A stretch of DNA of 24,610 nucleotides from Patescibacteria group bacterium (GTDB lineage: Bacteria; Patescibacteriota; Patescibacteriia; UBA1558; 2-01-FULL-52-15): positions 1-24,610 of the forward strand of contig JBBTUM010000134.1 in assembly GCA_038063795.1 (NCBI GenBank), in the 5' to 3' direction. Numbering within the stretch: position 1 is the stretch's first letter; the number at the start of each line of letters is the position of its first letter. The notes beneath the pieces are model-generated. The model was given only the letters and a program-made list of their open reading frames with translations, was not told the origin of the DNA and ran no database searches. Below are positions 19,287 to 24,213 of this stretch, piece after piece. The position numbers and the translations under genes are program-made.

Positions 19287-19961
19287 TTACTGGCTTTTCA
19301 AGACAAAAGGGTTGAAGTCTGTATCTTTGTCGTAAAAATCCTCGCTTTCTAGCTTCTTGAGTTTTCCGACGACCGCATAGGTGAGCGGCGTAAAAATAAT
19401 TTCGACCGCGACCTTTATCAGCCAGCCGGATAGAATCGAATTGACAAGTAGGTTGCTTGGGAGCACTGCGTAAAGAGCGATCGTATAGAACAGGATCGTA
19501 TTGGCAAGCTCGCCCACGACTGTAGAGCCCACCGTTCTGATCCAGAGATATTTTCCTTTAGTCAATACCTTCATTTTTGCGAGAACGTAGTCGTTCAATA
19601 TGCCGCCTACCCATACTGCGATCCAGCCGCCAAGAAGGATTCTAGGCACTGAGCCCAGTACGGTTGCGTAAGCGTCATTAGAGGGAAATCCTGCCGCCGG
19701 TGGGAGTGCTATAACAAGCTGATACACGAGGCCTGCGAGAATAGAGCTGAACAGCACCATCCACACTACGCTGCGAGCTTTCGCATATCCGTATACCTCT
19801 GTCAGCACATCGGAGATAATATACGTTATCGGGAAATAGAGAACAGTGACCGATACTGGAAAAATAAAAAACTGGATGATCTTGCCGGCCGTTATATCCG
19901 ATACAAGCTGCATGGTGATGTACAGTGCTGTAATCAATCCCAAAAATTTATATTGTTTCAT
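19287..19961 (-). CDS. yhhQ: VUT family (YhhQ-like) queuosine precursor transporter
   Basis: YFPITYIISDVLTEVYGYAKAR, RTVGSTVVGELANTILFYTIA, KVAVEIIFTPLTY; multiple TM helices; own extended -10 at 19971-19979. Confidence 0.92.
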   Translation of the reverse strand: MKQYKFLGLITALYITMQLVSDITAGKIIQFFIFPVSVTVLYFPITYIISDVLTEVYGYAKARSVVWMVLFSSILAGLVYQLVIALPPAAGFPSNDAYATVLGSVPRILLGGWIAVWVGGILNDYVLAKMKVLTKGKYLWIRTVGSTVVGELANTILFYTIALYAVLPSNLLVNSILSGWLIKVAVEIIFTPLTYAVVGKLKKLESEDFYDKDTDFNPFVLKSQ

Positions 19962-19998: not shown

Positions 19999-21108
19999 TC
20001 AATGATAGAGCGTGGCAATGAGCTGTACCTGGAGTTCCGGCATGGAAACGAGATGATCCTTCCACGTCGTATCGGATAGCTTTGAAACGCTGACTGCCTC
20101 GGAGACCGAAAACGTCCCTATCTCTGTCCTACGGAGCGCTATCATGACAGCGCCGGTCTTGAGCTTTGCGCCGATATCATGGATCAGGGACCGGACATAG
20201 GTACCGGTCGAACAGGCTACGCGGAACGTCAGAGATGGGTACTCGTAGGAAAGCAGATCGATCGAGTGGACCGTAACGAGGGCCGGTTTCCGCTCGATAT
20301 GCTTCCCCTTCCGGGCCATCTTATACAGCGGCTGCCCGCCGACCTTCTTCGCCGAAAACATGGGTGGTATCTGCTCGATCGTTCCGGTGAATTGCTTCAA
20401 CACATCCGTTACCTGCCCCTGCGTCGGCGCAGCGTGCCCCTTTCGCGTCACCGTGCCTTCGCTATCATACGTCGACGATGTCGCGCCAAGCTCTGCGGTC
20501 GCTTCATAGGTCTTTGGAAAAAAATGCCACCAATCGAGCAGGCTGCAGGCCTGTGAAATGCCGCACACGAGTAGCCCCGACGCGATCGGATCAAGCGTCC
20601 CTGCGAAACCGATCTGCTTGATGCCCGTGATCTTCCGGAGCTGGCTCACGGTATGAAACGACGGCTCTCCTACAGGCTTATCGATCAAGAGAAACCACGC
20701 GTCCTCATCTTCAGCGACGGCACGGATCTTTCTCGACGCAAAAATATCTGCATGGAACGACGGTAGCGTGATAATTTTCGTCGAAAGCTTCTGTTCAGAA
20801 ACATACTGTTTAAGCGAATCAACGAACAGTTTCTGATCATACCCGAGTATTACGACGTCAGGCTTGATCTCGCGAAACGCTTTCAGCCGGTCACGCTCAT
20901 CGCCCGGAAGCGCGTTCACTTCATACGCTTCAAGCTGTCGCACCCGCTCATGGAGCGCGTGCACGGGGGGTCTGCCCTTCACCTTCCGAATGGTCGAATC
21001 AAGCGCCAAAACCGCATGCACCTGACCGTGCTTCTTTGCTTCATTGATGAGAAACAAATGACCGGGATGAAGAATATCAAAAGTTCCGAATACAAGAACT
21101 CGTTTCAT
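19999..21108 (-). CDS. truB: Fusion of a cytidylyltransferase-like (RibL/TagD-type) domain and tRNA pseudouridine(55) synthase TruB
   Basis: FGTFDILHPGH (HxGH), ER, KPDVVILGYDQ in the first ~130 aa; then IDKP, AGTLDP, KTY, QIPPMFSAKK.GGQPLYKMARKG, CSTGTYVRSL..DIG, LRRT. Confidence 0.92.
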   Translation of the reverse strand: MKRVLVFGTFDILHPGHLFLINEAKKHGQVHAVLALDSTIRKVKGRPPVHALHERVRQLEAYEVNALPGDERDRLKAFREIKPDVVILGYDQKLFVDSLKQYVSEQKLSTKIITLPSFHADIFASRKIRAVAEDEDAWFLLIDKPVGEPSFHTVSQLRKITGIKQIGFAGTLDPIASGLLVCGISQACSLLDWWHFFPKTYEATAELGATSSTYDSEGTVTRKGHAAPTQGQVTDVLKQFTGTIEQIPPMFSAKKVGGQPLYKMARKGKHIERKPALVTVHSIDLLSYEYPSLTFRVACSTGTYVRSLIHDIGAKLKTGAVMIALRRTEIGTFSVSEAVSVSKLSDTTWKDHLVSMPELQVQLIATLYH

Positions 21109-21111
21109 AAC

Positions 21112-21351
21112 TTAGAGATCATATGTTGTATCGCTTCGCCGCTCAATTGAAATGACCCTATATCCTTCCTTGGTCCGCAGGAACAGCATCCTCATATTCC
21201 CTGACCTGACTCGAAAAATATCCCCGTGCCCGCTGAGTTTCTTTACATCAAGTCCTTCAATATTCTTGCGCCCAAGCTTATTGATAATCAATAATACCCG
21301 CTGCAAATCTTTCTTTGGCAACCTCTTCAAAAACTTGCGTACCTTATCCAT
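21112..21351 (-). CDS. RelE/ParE-family type II toxin
   Basis: 79 aa basic protein with DVKKLSG..IFRVRSGNMRMLF; directly downstream of the antitoxin. Confidence 0.85.
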   Translation of the reverse strand: MDKVRKFLKRLPKKDLQRVLLIINKLGRKNIEGLDVKKLSGHGDIFRVRSGNMRMLFLRTKEGYRVISIERRSDTTYDL

Positions 21352-21359
21352 GGCGCTCC

Positions 21360-21590
21360 TTAAGTGAGCAGCCCTGTTAGCGCCTTCTTAACGGTGTCCA
21401 GCGGGACCCCTCGGGGATCAATGCTGGTGAAATCGATAACCGTCTCCCAGGCATCTTCGTCAACGGGGATAAGCCTGAACACCGGTTTCGATTTTCTCAT
21501 GACTAAAAATGATACGCCTTTTTGCACTTGCGCAATATACGCATCCGTATTTTCGCGTAAGGCTTTTAATCCTACGATTTTTTCTGCCAT
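21360..21590 (-). CDS. Phd/YefM-family antitoxin
   Basis: IVGLKALRENTDAYIAQVQKGVSFLVMRKSKPVFRLIP N-terminal pattern. Confidence 0.85.
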   Translation of the reverse strand: MAEKIVGLKALRENTDAYIAQVQKGVSFLVMRKSKPVFRLIPVDEDAWETVIDFTSIDPRGVPLDTVKKALTGLLT

Positions 21591-21602
21591 ATCAATAAGT
21601 TA

Positions 21603-21647
21603 ATCTTAAGATAATCTTATGATATCGTATGATCATAGAGCTGTCAA
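21603..21647 (-). promoter_or_regulatory. TA operon promoter with palindromic operator candidates
   Basis: TTGACA (21642-21647)-17 nt-TATCAT (21619-21624); palindromes TATGATCATA (21628-21637) and ATCTTAAGAT (21603-21612). Confidence 0.7.
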
Positions 21648-21648
21648 A

Positions 21649-21729
21649 TTACCTCTTCCTCGCCTTCTTCAAAACAACTATCTGATCCCGTAACGTCGTG
21701 GCCTTTTCAAAATCCAGATTTTTCGCACA
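21649..21729 (-). pseudogene. Orphan, diverged copy of the uvrB 3' end (UVR domain tip), no start codon
   Basis: Translates to CAKNLDFEKATTLRDQIVVLKKARKR* versus the UvrB end AAENLDFERAAVLRDQIAILKKRKHG*; in-frame TAG just upstream (21742-21744). Confidence 0.85.
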
Positions 21730-21743
21730 GAAAAAGTATAGCT

Positions 21744-21782
21744 AAAAAAGAGGGCGGCCGCCATGCAAGAGCTTGGCGGCCG
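21744..21782 (-). terminator. Intrinsic terminator after the orphan gene
   Basis: GGCCGCCA..TGGCGGCC stem followed by CTCTTTTTT on the minus strand. Confidence 0.75.
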
Positions 21783-21789
21783 GTAGTCA

Positions 21790-22143
21790 TCAGGACTTCA
21801 CCTTCGAATGCTTGGAGATGCCCCGTGCGTAGCTTGCCCCGTGCTCGAAGGAGCGCGCGACCATCTGTGAAACGTTCGCAATGATCGGCCACGGGATTGT
21901 TAGAGCAGAAGCGGCCCCCAGTCGATCCAGTGCGTCGAGAAAAGCGCACTCATGCGGGTCCAGAAGCTCGACGATCGTGAATCGTTTCGTGTCTAGAGCG
22001 CACGAATCATGCTCGCCCCAATCAGAACCCCTAGGCGGCCTCTTCCCAACCTCAGGCTCGTCAGCTTCTCTGCACCGCATCAGGTGCAGGTGCGCTTCGT
22101 TTTCGCCTTGCACAACTGCGAAAAACCACTGGTTTCTCTCCAT
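21790..22143 (-). CDS. Hypothetical protein (117 aa)
   Basis: GGAGGAGG SD before ATG 22143 (MERNQWFF...); own terminator. Confidence 0.7.
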   Translation of the reverse strand: MERNQWFFAVVQGENEAHLHLMRCREADEPEVGKRPPRGSDWGEHDSCALDTKRFTIVELLDPHECAFLDALDRLGAASALTIPWPIIANVSQMVARSFEHGASYARGISKHSKVKS

Positions 22144-22233
22144 GCAGCCCTCCTCCATGAAAGGACACAAAAACAATAGTTTCACTCTAGGCGAGTGGTT
22201 TAAAAAAATCAACACGAGGCCTAATTGCGCTCT

Positions 22234-24213
22234 CTACCCATGCTTCCTCTTTTTCAATATCGCGATCTGATCTCTCAGCACTGCCGCTCTTTCAAAATCC
22301 AAATTCTCCGCCGCCAGCTTCATCTGCGCTTGCAATGTCTCGGCAAGGAACGCCTTCTCCTCTCGCTTCAGGTGCTTCACCTCGTCTCGGAACTGATCTT
22401 TCGTCACAAGCCCCTTGATAGAGACGTCCTTCACGTCGCGGACGATCGTTGTCGGCGTAATATGGTGCTCTGCGTTGTACGCCGTCTGAATTTTCCTTCG
22501 GCGCACGGTCTCCGCGATCGCGAGCTTCATCGAACGCGTCGTGCGGTCGGCATACATGATTGCGTGTCCGTCGCTGTGCCGCGCCGCACGCCCCATGACC
22601 TGGATGAGCGAGGTTTCATTTCTCAAAAAACCTTCCTTGTCCGCGTCGAGGATGACGACCAGCGAGACCTCGGGCAGATCGAGCCCTTCACGGAGCAGGT
22701 TGATGCCGACGAGAACGTCATACTTTCCCTGCCGCAGATCTTTCAGGATCACCAGGCGATCAAGCGTATCGATATCCGAGTGCAGATACTGCACCTTGAT
22801 ACCCTTCATGAGCAAGTGTTCAGCCAGATCCTCAGCGAGACGCTTCGTCAGAGTGGTTATCAGCACACGCTGCTTTTTCTTCACCCGCTTCTGAATCTCG
22901 AGCTCGACATCGGCGAGCTGACCGCGCGTCCTCCGCACCTCCACATCCGGGTCCAGGAGCCCCGTCGGCCTGATCAGCTGTTCTACCACTTCTGCTGATT
23001 GCTGCACTTCATACGGCATGGGCGTCGCCGACATGAAGACCGTCTGTCCGGTCCGCTCGAGAAACTCCTCCCAGTTCAGAGGACGGTTATCTATGGCCGC
23101 GGGGAGACGCCAGCCATAGTCAACCAGTGTCGTTTTACGCGAACGGTCTCCCTGATACATGCCACGTATCTGCGGGATGGTGATATGCGACTCGTCGATG
23201 ACAAGCAAAAAATCGTCAGGAAAATAATCGATCAGGGTCGCCGGAGGTTGACCGGGTTGCCTGCGGTCCAGATAACGGGAGTAATTCTCGATGCCGCTGC
23301 AGTACCCAACGGTTTCGATCATCTCCAGATCATACTTCACGCGCTCTTCGATTCGCTGCGCCTCGATCAGCTTATCCTCTTTTTTGAATTGTGCCACCCG
23401 CTTCGCGAGGTCAGTCCGTATCTCGCTCACGATCTCAGGAAGGTTCTGCTCCGGGGCGAGGAAATGCTTCGCCGGAAATATCGAAATAGACGCGAGATTC
23501 GCATCGACGACATCACGCGTCAGATAGTGAACGCGTTTTATCTTCTCGAGTGTGTTGCCGTGGAACTCCAGGCGATAAAATCCGTCGACTTCGCTCGCCG
23601 GCAGGATCTCAAGTACCTCGCCCTTCACGCTGTATGAGCCGCGCACGAGGCTCAGGTCATTGCGCTCATACTGCAGATGATGGAGCCGGCGAAGGATGTT
23701 TTCGATCGAGTATTCCTTGCCTCTCGAAAGCTCGATGCGGACGCGGGAATAGTTCTCCGGCGAGCCAAGACCATAAATGCATGACACCGAAGCCACCACG
23801 ATGACATCACGGCGCGTGAGTACCGCTTGCGTGCTCGCGTGGCGCAGCCGATCGATCTCTTCATTGATATCGGTCTCCTTTTCGATATGCGTATCGGTCG
23901 TCGGAATGTATGCTTCCGGCTGATAGTAATCGTAATACGAGACAAAGTAATGAACCGCGTTCTGAGGAAAAAAATCCTGGAATTCAGACGCGAGCTGCGC
24001 CGCAAGCGTTTTGTTGTGCGAAATGACGAGCGTGGGACGATTGAGCTGCTCGATAACGTTCGCTATCGTGAACGTCTTACCGGAACCTGTGACGCCCTTT
24101 AAGGTCATCTTATCCACGCCGTGTGAAATTCCCGACGTCAATTTCTCAATGGCCTGCCCCTGATCACCAGCAGACTTGAATTTTGAAATCAGTTTAAAAG
24201 CACTTTTTGACAT
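22234..24213 (-). CDS. uvrB: Excinuclease ABC subunit B
   Basis: GVTGSGKTFT, YYDYYQPEAY, DESHITIPQ, MSATP, LVGINLLREGLDLPEV, QVMGRAAR, C-terminal UVR helix. Confidence 0.98.
   Translation of the reverse strand: MSKSAFKLISKFKSAGDQGQAIEKLTSGISHGVDKMTLKGVTGSGKTFTIANVIEQLNRPTLVISHNKTLAAQLASEFQDFFPQNAVHYFVSYYDYYQPEAYIPTTDTHIEKETDINEEIDRLRHASTQAVLTRRDVIVVASVSCIYGLGSPENYSRVRIELSRGKEYSIENILRRLHHLQYERNDLSLVRGSYSVKGEVLEILPASEVDGFYRLEFHGNTLEKIKRVHYLTRDVVDANLASISIFPAKHFLAPEQNLPEIVSEIRTDLAKRVAQFKKEDKLIEAQRIEERVKYDLEMIETVGYCSGIENYSRYLDRRQPGQPPATLIDYFPDDFLLVIDESHITIPQIRGMYQGDRSRKTTLVDYGWRLPAAIDNRPLNWEEFLERTGQTVFMSATPMPYEVQQSAEVVEQLIRPTGLLDPDVEVRRTRGQLADVELEIQKRVKKKQRVLITTLTKRLAEDLAEHLLMKGIKVQYLHSDIDTLDRLVILKDLRQGKYDVLVGINLLREGLDLPEVSLVVILDADKEGFLRNETSLIQVMGRAARHSDGHAIMYADRTTRSMKLAIAETVRRRKIQTAYNAEHHITPTTIVRDVKDVSIKGLVTKDQFRDEVKHLKREEKAFLAETLQAQMKLAAENLDFERAAVLRDQIAILKKRKHG

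What the first reader, a model, noticed from the sequence alone, without database searches (positions are those of the whole stretch)
21649..22311. Duplicated uvrB 3' end: footprint of an insertion that replaced the end of uvrB and carries an orphan gene
A start-less 26-codon fragment (CAKNLDFEKATTLRDQIVVLKKARKR*) matches the UvrB C-terminus (AAENLDFERAAVLRDQIAILKKRKHG*). DNA identity peaks at TTTCAAAATCCA.ATT.T.CGC (21705-21726 vs 22290-22311). The fragment's stop abuts the TA -35 box, so it is probably the original end. Between the two copies lie one SD-led orphan gene and a terminator. This is the pattern left by elements that recombine into a gene's 3' end and supply a replacement tail, but no integrase is present. 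It suggests a minimal cassette or decayed island using uvrB as an attachment site.
Basis: partly seen in the sequence, partly recalled or inferred. Interest (0 to 1): 0.65.

Follow-up and report, generated by a model that had tools for sequence, protein, structure and literature searches.

The report
Displaced uvrB tail: a recombination scar
A dead second copy of the last 26 codons of the DNA-repair gene uvrB is real. It marks where two alternative gene fillings of a strain-variable gap between uvrB and truB were joined by sloppy recombination, not where an integrase-driven element docked.

Summary
Window 21649-21729 (minus strand) is a start-less 26-codon copy of the UvrB C-terminus: 16/26 residues and 51/81 bases match the live tail, and it scores above the Pfam UVR cut-off. 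It lies behind a 117-aa orphan gene and a terminator, and abuts a RelE/Phd toxin-antitoxin promoter.

The organism is a groundwater Komeilibacteria-like Patescibacterium. In relatives uvrB abuts truB directly, so this gap is a hypervariable slot. Conspecific strains share 1879/1880 uvrB bases, then differ in the last ~100 bases and in all downstream DNA. A second lineage has the same layout with two stacked remnants, and a third has a near-identical duplicated tail.

The remnant diverged almost only synonymously, so it was a working tail until recently. The 20 bases in front of it are the truB leader of a congener. The locus is therefore "uvrB-orphan-truB leader" joined to "uvrB tail-TA-truB" by one illegitimate junction, in a patch where the truB start and the UVR codons look alike.

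Best reading: homology-facilitated illegitimate recombination, that is, C-terminal displacement. I found no integrase and no fixed att core. Which half arrived first cannot be told. The scan has noted similar scars on other DNA, including a uvrB tail in a mollicute. Interest is moderate.

The parts
22234..24213 (-). uvrB, intact, 659 aa
   Evidence: Pfam UvrB_inter, Helicase_C, UvrB, ResIII and UVR. It is 93-94% identical to congener UvrBs P0003 and P0004.
22234..22314 (-). Live UVR tail of uvrB (AAENLDFERAAVLRDQIAILKKRKHG*), the copy homologous to the remnant
   Evidence: This is the genus-typical tail type: 69/85 bases match congeners over positions 1881-1965.
21790..22143 (-). Orphan gene of 117 aa, SD GGAGGAGGG at 22148-22156
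   Evidence: No Pfam, NCBIfam or PHROG family. It found only itself among 5.8 billion proteins, and the HMMER hits were spurious repeats. One syntenic weak relative exists in L038: 28% identity over 67 aa, E 4e-5.
21744..21782 (-). Intrinsic terminator of the orphan gene: GC hairpin 21755-21782 and U-run 21744-21749
   Evidence: RNAfold gives -25.3 kcal/mol; the element is single-copy in the genome.
21730..21749 (-). truB-proximal leader (U-run plus AGCTATACT, a -10-like TATACT), now cut off from truB
   Evidence: 15/15 exact and then 5/7 matches to the sequence that sits 7 nt before the truB ATG in congeners L055 and L057.
21706..21730 (-). Junction zone: the single illegitimate join. Here the truB start codons and the UVR codons resemble each other (G.A.A.T.T.GATTTT).
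   Evidence: Four-way alignment A2. The exact crossover base cannot be fixed.
21649..21729 (-). Start-less UvrB tail remnant, 26 codons plus TAA
   Evidence: Its divergence is of the coding type: pS 0.85-0.87, pN 0.16-0.21.
21599..21647 (-). TA promoter TTGACA-17-TATCAT, with the operator-like AAGATTATCTTAAGATTAAC at 21599-21618
   Evidence: The same 20-mer fronts related TA pairs in other contexts (L049, L043, L052) that have no UVR remnant.
21360..21590 (-). Phd/YefM-type antitoxin, 76 aa
   Evidence: PF02604 at E 3.6e-5 (below the gathering score) and TIGR01552 at 0.0014.
21112..21351 (-). RelE-like toxin, 79 aa
   Evidence: phrog_1213 RelE-like toxin, E 5.8e-7. 85% nt identity to L038's copy, against about 60-72% for the flanks.
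19999..21108 (-). Cytidylyltransferase-TruB fusion gene, the right border of the slot
   Evidence: Pfam TruB_N, CTP_transf_like and TruB_C_2. It directly follows uvrB in relatives.

Best explanation
The fragment is a non-functional, displaced C-terminus of UvrB. In this family the backbone femAB-ruvA-uvrB-truB-S20 is conserved, but the gap between uvrB and truB is a slot that is empty in some lineages and filled with different genes in others. The window's slot is a recombinant of two such fillings. The left part is 'uvrB with the genus-type tail, orphan gene, terminator, truB leader'. The right part is 'last 26 codons of another uvrB, RelE/Phd cassette, truB'. They are joined at one illegitimate junction (21706-21730). 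That junction lies in a short patch where the first codons of truB and the UVR-motif codons happen to be alike. The likely mechanism is uptake of DNA from a relative, followed by homologous recombination in one conserved flank and a microhomology-assisted illegitimate join at the other end. This is homology-facilitated illegitimate recombination, which gives 'C-terminal displacement'. Shown here: the remnant is a UvrB tail; relatives have the empty slot; tails swap with cargo between strains; the truB leader lies in front of the remnant; the remnant's divergence is coding-type; the TA cassette is much more similar between the two lineages than the core genes around it. Inferred: the recombination route itself. 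Undecided: which half was resident and which came in.
For: (1) In relatives uvrB is followed at once by truB. L059, the sister of the window's clade in the UvrB tree, has the two genes overlapping; L061 and G009 have a gap of about 20-50 nt. (2) Conspecific strains L036 and L055/56/57 match at 1879/1880 uvrB bases, then at 68/85 with almost only synonymous changes, and then carry unrelated downstream DNA (L055: TrmB-type regulator, two radical-SAM genes, small ORF, truB). (3) L038, which lies outside the window's clade, has uvrB, a 129-aa weak relative of the orphan, a GC hairpin, two stacked start-less tail remnants, the same TA promoter, the TA pair and truB. G082, from another family of the order, has uvrB, a 53-nt hairpin, a near-identical tail remnant, a terminator, an ORF and truB. 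(4) Remnant versus own tail: pS 0.85, pN 0.21 (Fisher 5e-6). Remnant versus L038 remnant B: pS 0.87, pN 0.16 (6e-5). So the remnants were coding until recently. (5) The 20 nt before the remnant equal the truB leader of congeners. (6) Synonymous divergence between the window and L038 is 0.25 (antitoxin) and 0.51 (toxin), against 0.73-0.87 for uvrB, truB and the remnant. The TA cassette therefore shares a more recent ancestor than its flanks. The truB 5' part is more diverged from the congener (pS 0.63) than femAB, ruvA and uvrB (0.29-0.45). (7) No recombinase lies on the contig, and the hairpins are single-copy. (8) ComEC and DprA are present, so DNA uptake is plausible. (9) The same model was proposed for T6SS and Rhs arrays (PMC5361080).
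Against: No donor or parental allele was found, neither uvrB-orphan-truB nor an intact uvrB ending in KKARKR followed by the TA pair. The two-allele reconstruction therefore rests on one 20-nt leader match and on divergence statistics from very short sequences (16-26 codons). All three remnant-bearing loci have a GC hairpin right in front of the remnant, and two lineages carry members of one orphan family at the same place. This regularity could point to a directed process. The contig data had no power to detect excision or empty sites (depth 3-7, contigs only). Natural transformation has not been shown for this organism.
Confidence: 0.6

Rival explanations
1. Site-specific integration. A small cassette or decayed island recognises a core in the UVR-coding end of uvrB, integrates there using a recombinase encoded elsewhere or since lost, and supplies a replacement tail.
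For: There is an exact 12-mer shared by the two copies. The pattern of live tail, cargo and displaced tail matches e14/phage 21 at icd (my own knowledge). A related orphan gene plus hairpin occupies the same place in L038. Each remnant is preceded by a GC hairpin. Three tyrosine recombinases exist elsewhere in the genome.
Against: No recombinase lies in the 585-bp insert or on the 24.6-kb contig. Homology starts at different codons in the four remnants. The DNA in front of the remnant is the truB leader, not an element arm. L036 and L037 have near-identical tails but different DNA straight after the stop codon. The shared 12-mer encodes conserved motif residues, so it is expected anyway.
Confidence: 0.1
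2. A directed but integrase-free cassette process. Hairpin-ended cassettes of the orphan family spread into uvrB tails, for example because the tail repeat on both sides serves as homology arms, so that the structure copies itself into naive uvrB loci.
For: The same layout occurs in two lineages that are not sisters. The coding-type divergence of the two remnants argues for independent displacements.
Against: Only two examples exist. The orphan family has no other members in 5.8 billion or 1.8 billion protein searches. G082 has no cargo gene at all. Ordinary slot exchange explains the same facts.
Confidence: 0.12
3. Local tandem duplication of the uvrB end within this lineage, followed by drift of the spare copy and later insertion of the orphan gene.
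For: Two copies lie in direct orientation 585 bp apart. G082 shows a near-identical (young) duplicate.
Against: The window's copies differ at saturated synonymous sites but at few replacement sites (pS 0.85, pN 0.21). A dead copy would not evolve that way. The truB leader lies between the copies.
Confidence: 0.04
4. The fragment is a relic of another UVR-domain gene (a decayed uvrC or similar), or it is kept for a function of its own, such as an alternative tail or a promoter upstream element.
For: The UVR motif also occurs in UvrC. The fragment's frame is still open. Its stop codon abuts the -35 box.
Against: uvrC is intact on contig C114, with its UVR motif internal. The fragment aligns to UvrB tails right up to the basic end and the stop codon. 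It has no start codon or SD. Related TA promoters elsewhere lack it.
Confidence: 0.03

Closest known systems
C-terminal displacement in rhs, CDI and T6SS effector-immunity loci (Jackson et al. 2009, as cited in PMC5361080; Kirchberger et al. 2017, PMC5361080)
   Same: A conserved gene body; a 3' end exchanged together with the gene behind it; old start-less 3' ends pushed downstream and stacked (two in L038); no dedicated recombinase. [quoted passage not shown]
   Different: Here the gene is a housekeeping repair gene, and the swapped end is a conserved 26-residue UVR motif, not a variable toxin domain. The cargo is an unknown small protein and a RelE/Phd pair, with no evidence of an effector-immunity relation to the tail.
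Homology-facilitated illegitimate recombination during natural transformation (de Vries and Wackernagel 2002; Prudhomme et al. 2002; Meier and Wackernagel 2003; cited through PMC5361080 and PMC3240628)
   Same: One homologous anchor in a conserved flank; one join at a short patch of similarity; foreign DNA gained next to the anchor. ComEC and DprA are present in this genome.
   Different: Those are laboratory events. Here only the scar is seen, in an uncultured Patescibacterium, and the direction of transfer is unknown.
Integrative elements that insert in the 3' end of a protein gene and carry a replacement end (e14 and phage 21 in E. coli icd; ICESt1/ICESt3 in fda; my own knowledge)
   Same: A live gene with a substituted end, cargo, then the displaced original end as a pseudogene fragment.
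   Different: Those elements have an integrase and a fixed att core at both ends. Here neither was found, and the junction position varies between lineages.

Membership tests
Integrase-driven element in a gene's 3' end (icd/e14 type) | The element encodes, or is linked to, a site-specific recombinase | tested here: not met
   There are no PF00589 matches on this contig; the three in the genome lie on C12, C152 and C175. The insert holds one 117-aa orphan with no family. Serine recombinases were not searched.
Integrase-driven element in a gene's 3' end (icd/e14 type) | Identical att core at both ends, at the same position in independent insertions | tested here: not met
   A shared 12-mer exists, but homology starts at AKNLDFE in the window, at FEKATEL in G082, and at VLRDQI and ATLRDQI in L038.
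Integrase-driven element in a gene's 3' end (icd/e14 type) | Displaced original 3' end downstream, and an empty site in relatives | tested here: met
   The remnant is at 21649-21729. uvrB abuts truB in L059, L061 and G009.
Integrase-driven element in a gene's 3' end (icd/e14 type) | Excised circular form or precise excision | tested here: inconclusive
   No joints were seen in four groundwater runs, but these were contigs only, at depth 3-7.
C-terminal displacement / HFIR scar | The 3' end of a conserved gene is exchanged together with downstream DNA between close strains | tested here: met
   L036 versus L055: 1879/1880 bases identical, then 68/85, then unrelated DNA.
C-terminal displacement / HFIR scar | Start-less displaced 3' remnants downstream, which can stack | tested here: met
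   One in the window, two in L038, one in G082.
C-terminal displacement / HFIR scar | The remnant was functional until displaced (coding-type divergence) | tested here: met
   pS 0.85-0.87 against pN 0.16-0.21, Fisher 5e-6 and 6e-5. The samples are small (16-24 codons).
C-terminal displacement / HFIR scar | Illegitimate join at microhomology, with no repeated element at the junction | tested here: met
   The junction lies in a patch shared by the truB start and the UVR codons. The hairpins are single-copy.
C-terminal displacement / HFIR scar | DNA-uptake and recombination machinery present | tested here: met
   ComEC 177.8 bits and DprA 203.1 bits. Actual competence cannot be tested here.
Polymorphic toxin-immunity module | The variable end is a toxin domain and the next gene is its immunity protein | tested here: not met
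   The exchanged end is a conserved UVR motif. The orphan has no family or usable fold: pLDDT 39.6.

The most novel reading that the evidence does not exclude
The uvrB tail is not just a passive border. A family of small hairpin-ended cassettes (the 117/129-aa orphans) repeatedly and specifically displaces UvrB tails in Komeilibacteria-like bacteria without any integrase. It would use the tail copy it leaves behind as a homology arm to invade naive uvrB loci, making it a self-propagating, recombinase-free cassette at a housekeeping gene.
Probability: 0.1. Interest if true: 0.65.

Novelty: new member of a known kind. Interest (0 to 1): 0.38.

Why it matters
It gives a clean, dated natural example of how tiny-genome, uncultured Patescibacteria gain genes without mobile-element enzymes. 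A slot between two core genes is refilled by recombination with relatives. Occasional illegitimate joins leave gene-end remnants, which record the history. The same logic is known from toxin loci; seeing it at uvrB shows that it is a general by-product of recombination at variable slots. For annotation, the practical lesson is that such fragments should not be read as att sites or pseudogenes of separate genes. The case also flags a RelE/Phd cassette that moves between lineages and fits exactly between a stop codon and the next start codon.

Tried and rejected
1. Orphan identity. Pfam, NCBIfam and PHROGs gave nothing. The word-based search found only the protein itself. The full HMMER search returned only repetitive eukaryote-like artefacts. 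The ESM Atlas gave no usable hit. The AlphaFold single-sequence model had pLDDT 39.6, so no fold search was made.

2. Empty site or circles in reads. Eight runs hold the stretch, but only as low-depth Logan contigs, and no joints were seen. This test had no power.

3. The remnant as part of the TA cassette. Rejected. Related TA pairs with the same operator have no remnant, and the remnant's synonymous divergence is core-like, not TA-like.

4. Phylogeny of the tails, to tell the native tail from the foreign one. The sequences are too short and saturated; the remnant is 61-67% identical to every tail.

5. Class-wide survey of UVR remnants. The output was cut to the best 150 matches, so short remnants could not be seen.

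6. Hairpins as repeated elements (MITE or attC type). They are single-copy in their genomes.

7. Decayed uvrC. uvrC is intact elsewhere in the genome.
Full report
**Setting.** The window is one whole contig of a 1.16-Mb, 96.5%-complete genome. Its closest named UvrB relatives are Candidatus Komeilibacteria (Patescibacteria). The same DNA occurs letter for letter in an NCBI assembly (157-kb contig, L033), in Logan contigs of several groundwater runs, and in an ENA contig.

On the minus strand the order is:
- uvrB (22234-24213)
- a 117-aa orphan gene with a strong SD (21790-22143)
- a hairpin terminator (21755-21782, U-run 21744-21749)
- the fragment (21649-21729)
- a TTGACA-17-TATCAT promoter that starts one base after the fragment's stop codon
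- a Phd/YefM-type antitoxin and a RelE-like toxin
- four bases later, a cytidylyltransferase-TruB fusion gene

**Observation.** The fragment reads CAKNLDFEKATTLRDQIVVLKKARKR*. It has an in-frame stop five codons upstream and no start codon. On its own it passes the Pfam UVR gathering score: 28.1 bits against 21.5, profile positions 14-35 of 36. It aligns with UvrB tails of the same family up to the basic end and the stop codon. The genome's uvrC is intact on another contig, with its UVR motif in the middle of the protein. A scan of 1046 ORF tails against their own downstream DNA ranked this pair second. From the matched sequences the other high hits look like repeated or paralogous genes, though I did not check each for a start codon.

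**The gap between uvrB and truB is a variable slot.** The backbone femAB-ruvA-uvrB-truB-S20-holA-polA is conserved. Several relatives have an empty slot:
- In L059, the sister of the window's clade in a UvrB tree (support 99/99), uvrB overlaps truB.
- L061 and G009 have a gap of about 20-50 nt.

Other relatives have the slot filled:
- L060 has a RidA-like gene.
- G003 has unrelated reverse-strand genes.
- The congener strains L055, L056 and L057 have a TrmB-type regulator, two radical-SAM genes and a small ORF.
- L037 starts a lipoprotein-like ORF there.

**Tails travel with cargo.** L036 and L055 belong to one species. Their uvrB genes match at 1879 of the first 1880 bases. From base 1881 they match at only 68/85, with almost all changes synonymous, and the DNA after the stop codon is unrelated. 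L037 is identical to L036 for about 900 bases and is then a mosaic. So the last ~100 bases of uvrB serve as the left border of slot exchange between diverged relatives.

**More remnants.** L038 is a Logan contig from another lineage (uvrB about 72% nt identity). It lies outside the clade of the window, its congeners and L059. It has uvrB, then a 129-aa gene that is a weak relative of the orphan (28% over 67 aa, E 4e-5), then a 15-bp GC hairpin. Two stacked start-less tail pieces follow (AAVLRDQIAVLKGKG, then ATLRDQIAILKKPRRK*). After them come the same TAATTTGACAG junction, the TA pair and truB. A survey of the UVR family in 86 genomes of the order found one further short-frame match: in G082 the uvrB stop is followed by a 53-nt hairpin and a near-identical copy of the tail. 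In all three loci a single-copy GC hairpin sits just in front of the remnant. Homology starts at a different codon in each case.

**The remnant was a working tail.** Between the remnant and the live tail, synonymous sites are saturated (pS 0.85) while replacement sites are not (pN 0.21; Fisher 5e-6). Between the window's remnant and L038's distal remnant the values are pS 0.87 and pN 0.16 (6e-5). Random mutation at the same density would give a stop codon in 43-57% of trials, and as few residue changes in under 1%. A tandem duplicate decaying in place is therefore excluded. The two tails come from different uvrB lineages. The live tail is the genus type (69/85 bases matching the congeners). 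The remnant is 61-67% identical to every tail sampled.

**The TA pair is a separate, younger passenger.** From the -35 box to the toxin stop codon, the window and L038 are about 85-91% identical. On both sides identity then drops to about 60-70%. Synonymous divergence is 0.25 for the antitoxin and 0.51 for the toxin, against 0.87 for the remnant, 0.73 for uvrB and 0.75 for truB. Related TA pairs with the same 20-nt operator-like repeat sit in other contexts and have no UVR remnant. The remnant is therefore not part of the TA cassette.

**One junction explains the structure.** The 20 bases in front of the remnant (21749-21730: the U-run plus AGCTATACT and five more of seven bases) equal the sequence that lies 7 nt before the truB start codon in the congeners L055 and L057, where it follows a different terminator. 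So the left part of the window's slot, up to 21730, is "uvrB, orphan, terminator, truB leader". The right part is "uvrB tail, TA, truB". In the four-way alignment, the truB start, the remnant and the live tail all share the pattern G.A.A.T.T.GATTTT just at the junction. This gives a patch of chance similarity for an illegitimate join. Only one non-homologous event is needed: a one-sided homologous exchange in uvrB or in truB, plus this join.

Which half was resident cannot be told from the product. Three points fit arrival of the TA half, with a foreign tail piece, into a genus-type "orphan" allele: the genus-type live tail, the TA cassette being far more similar between the two lineages than the core genes, and the raised synonymous divergence of the truB 5' part against the congener (0.63, against 0.29-0.45 for femAB, ruvA and uvrB). 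But the same points fit equally well if a TA allele came first by clean exchange and the orphan half arrived second. The stacked order in L038 fits the classical left-anchored displacement.

**Mechanism and comparison.** No tyrosine recombinase lies on the contig; the genome's three are elsewhere. ComEC and DprA are present. The pattern matches what has been called C-terminal displacement in rhs loci, and sequential displacement by homology-facilitated illegitimate recombination in Vibrio T6SS clusters (PMC5361080; see also PMC3240628). It also resembles the icd/e14 type of gene-end replacement (my own knowledge), but it fails that type's defining features of an integrase and a fixed core.

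Earlier notes of this scan describe like scars on other DNA. They include a duplicated uvrB tail in a mollicute and a moaC tail beside a TA cassette. I did not test those notes.

**What remains open.** No parental allele was found. The orphan family has only two members and no assignable function. The recurrence of "orphan-family gene plus hairpin" in front of a remnant in two non-sister lineages leaves some room for a directed, integrase-free cassette process (about 10%). The read data had no power to detect excision.

**Verdict.** This is a new example of a known kind of recombination scar, at an unusual gene and in an under-studied phylum. Interest is moderate.

Noticed in passing
window 21109-21651; L038:2316-2863; L039: The RelE/Phd cassette fits exactly between a uvrB-type stop codon (TAA, then TTGACA) and the truB ATG (stop, 4 nt, ATG) in three lineages whose truB genes are only 54-61% identical. 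The cassette itself is 85-91% identical. Synonymous divergence rises from antitoxin (0.25) to toxin (0.51) to truB (0.75). This looks like recent lateral spread or homogenisation of a precisely fitting cassette.
   Followed up: partly
window 21730-21749; L055:6228-6257; L060:5800-5847; L061:7000-7034: truB appears to have a -10-like box (TATACT, TATAGT or TATAAT) only 6-7 nt before its ATG in several relatives, which suggests a leaderless truB mRNA. In the window this box now points into the remnant and the TA pair.
   Followed up: no
L036:4254-4275: Forty-four bases after the uvrB stop codon of congener L036 lies a 22-nt stretch that is 86% identical to the truB start region of L055. It is followed by unrelated sequence and the contig end. 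This may be a displaced truB start, the mirror image of the uvrB remnant.
   Followed up: no
window 21682 (run X6): One contig in a groundwater run matches the remnant from 21682 upward. Below that point it carries 111 other letters that would continue the frame as ...LRDQ-EREIRRQLDK. It could be another organism's UVR-motif gene or a variant junction. It could not be retrieved.
   Followed up: no
window 19287-19961; L038:4067-8641; L060:6960-7703: A second variable slot lies between truB and the S20 gene. It holds a Vut_1 transporter in the window; a methyltransferase, a GMC oxidoreductase, a Fic protein and a peptidase in L038; a 247-aa gene in L060; and nothing in L059 or L061.
   Followed up: no
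L055:2417-6129; L057:2159-5949: The congener's slot holds a TrmB-type HTH regulator, two radical-SAM proteins and a small family-less ORF (139 or 165 aa, differing between strains). It may be a small peptide-modification cluster.
   Followed up: no
L058 (G082:C50:5100-5340): The uvrB tail is duplicated. About 40 nt are nearly identical, then the basic ends differ. The copies are separated only by a 53-nt single-copy GC hairpin with no cargo gene.
   Followed up: partly
L037 versus L036, uvrB bases 900-1900: Within one species, uvrB is identical for the first ~900 bases and is then a patchwork of 78-100% identical windows. This shows frequent recombination with diverged alleles inside uvrB.
   Followed up: no
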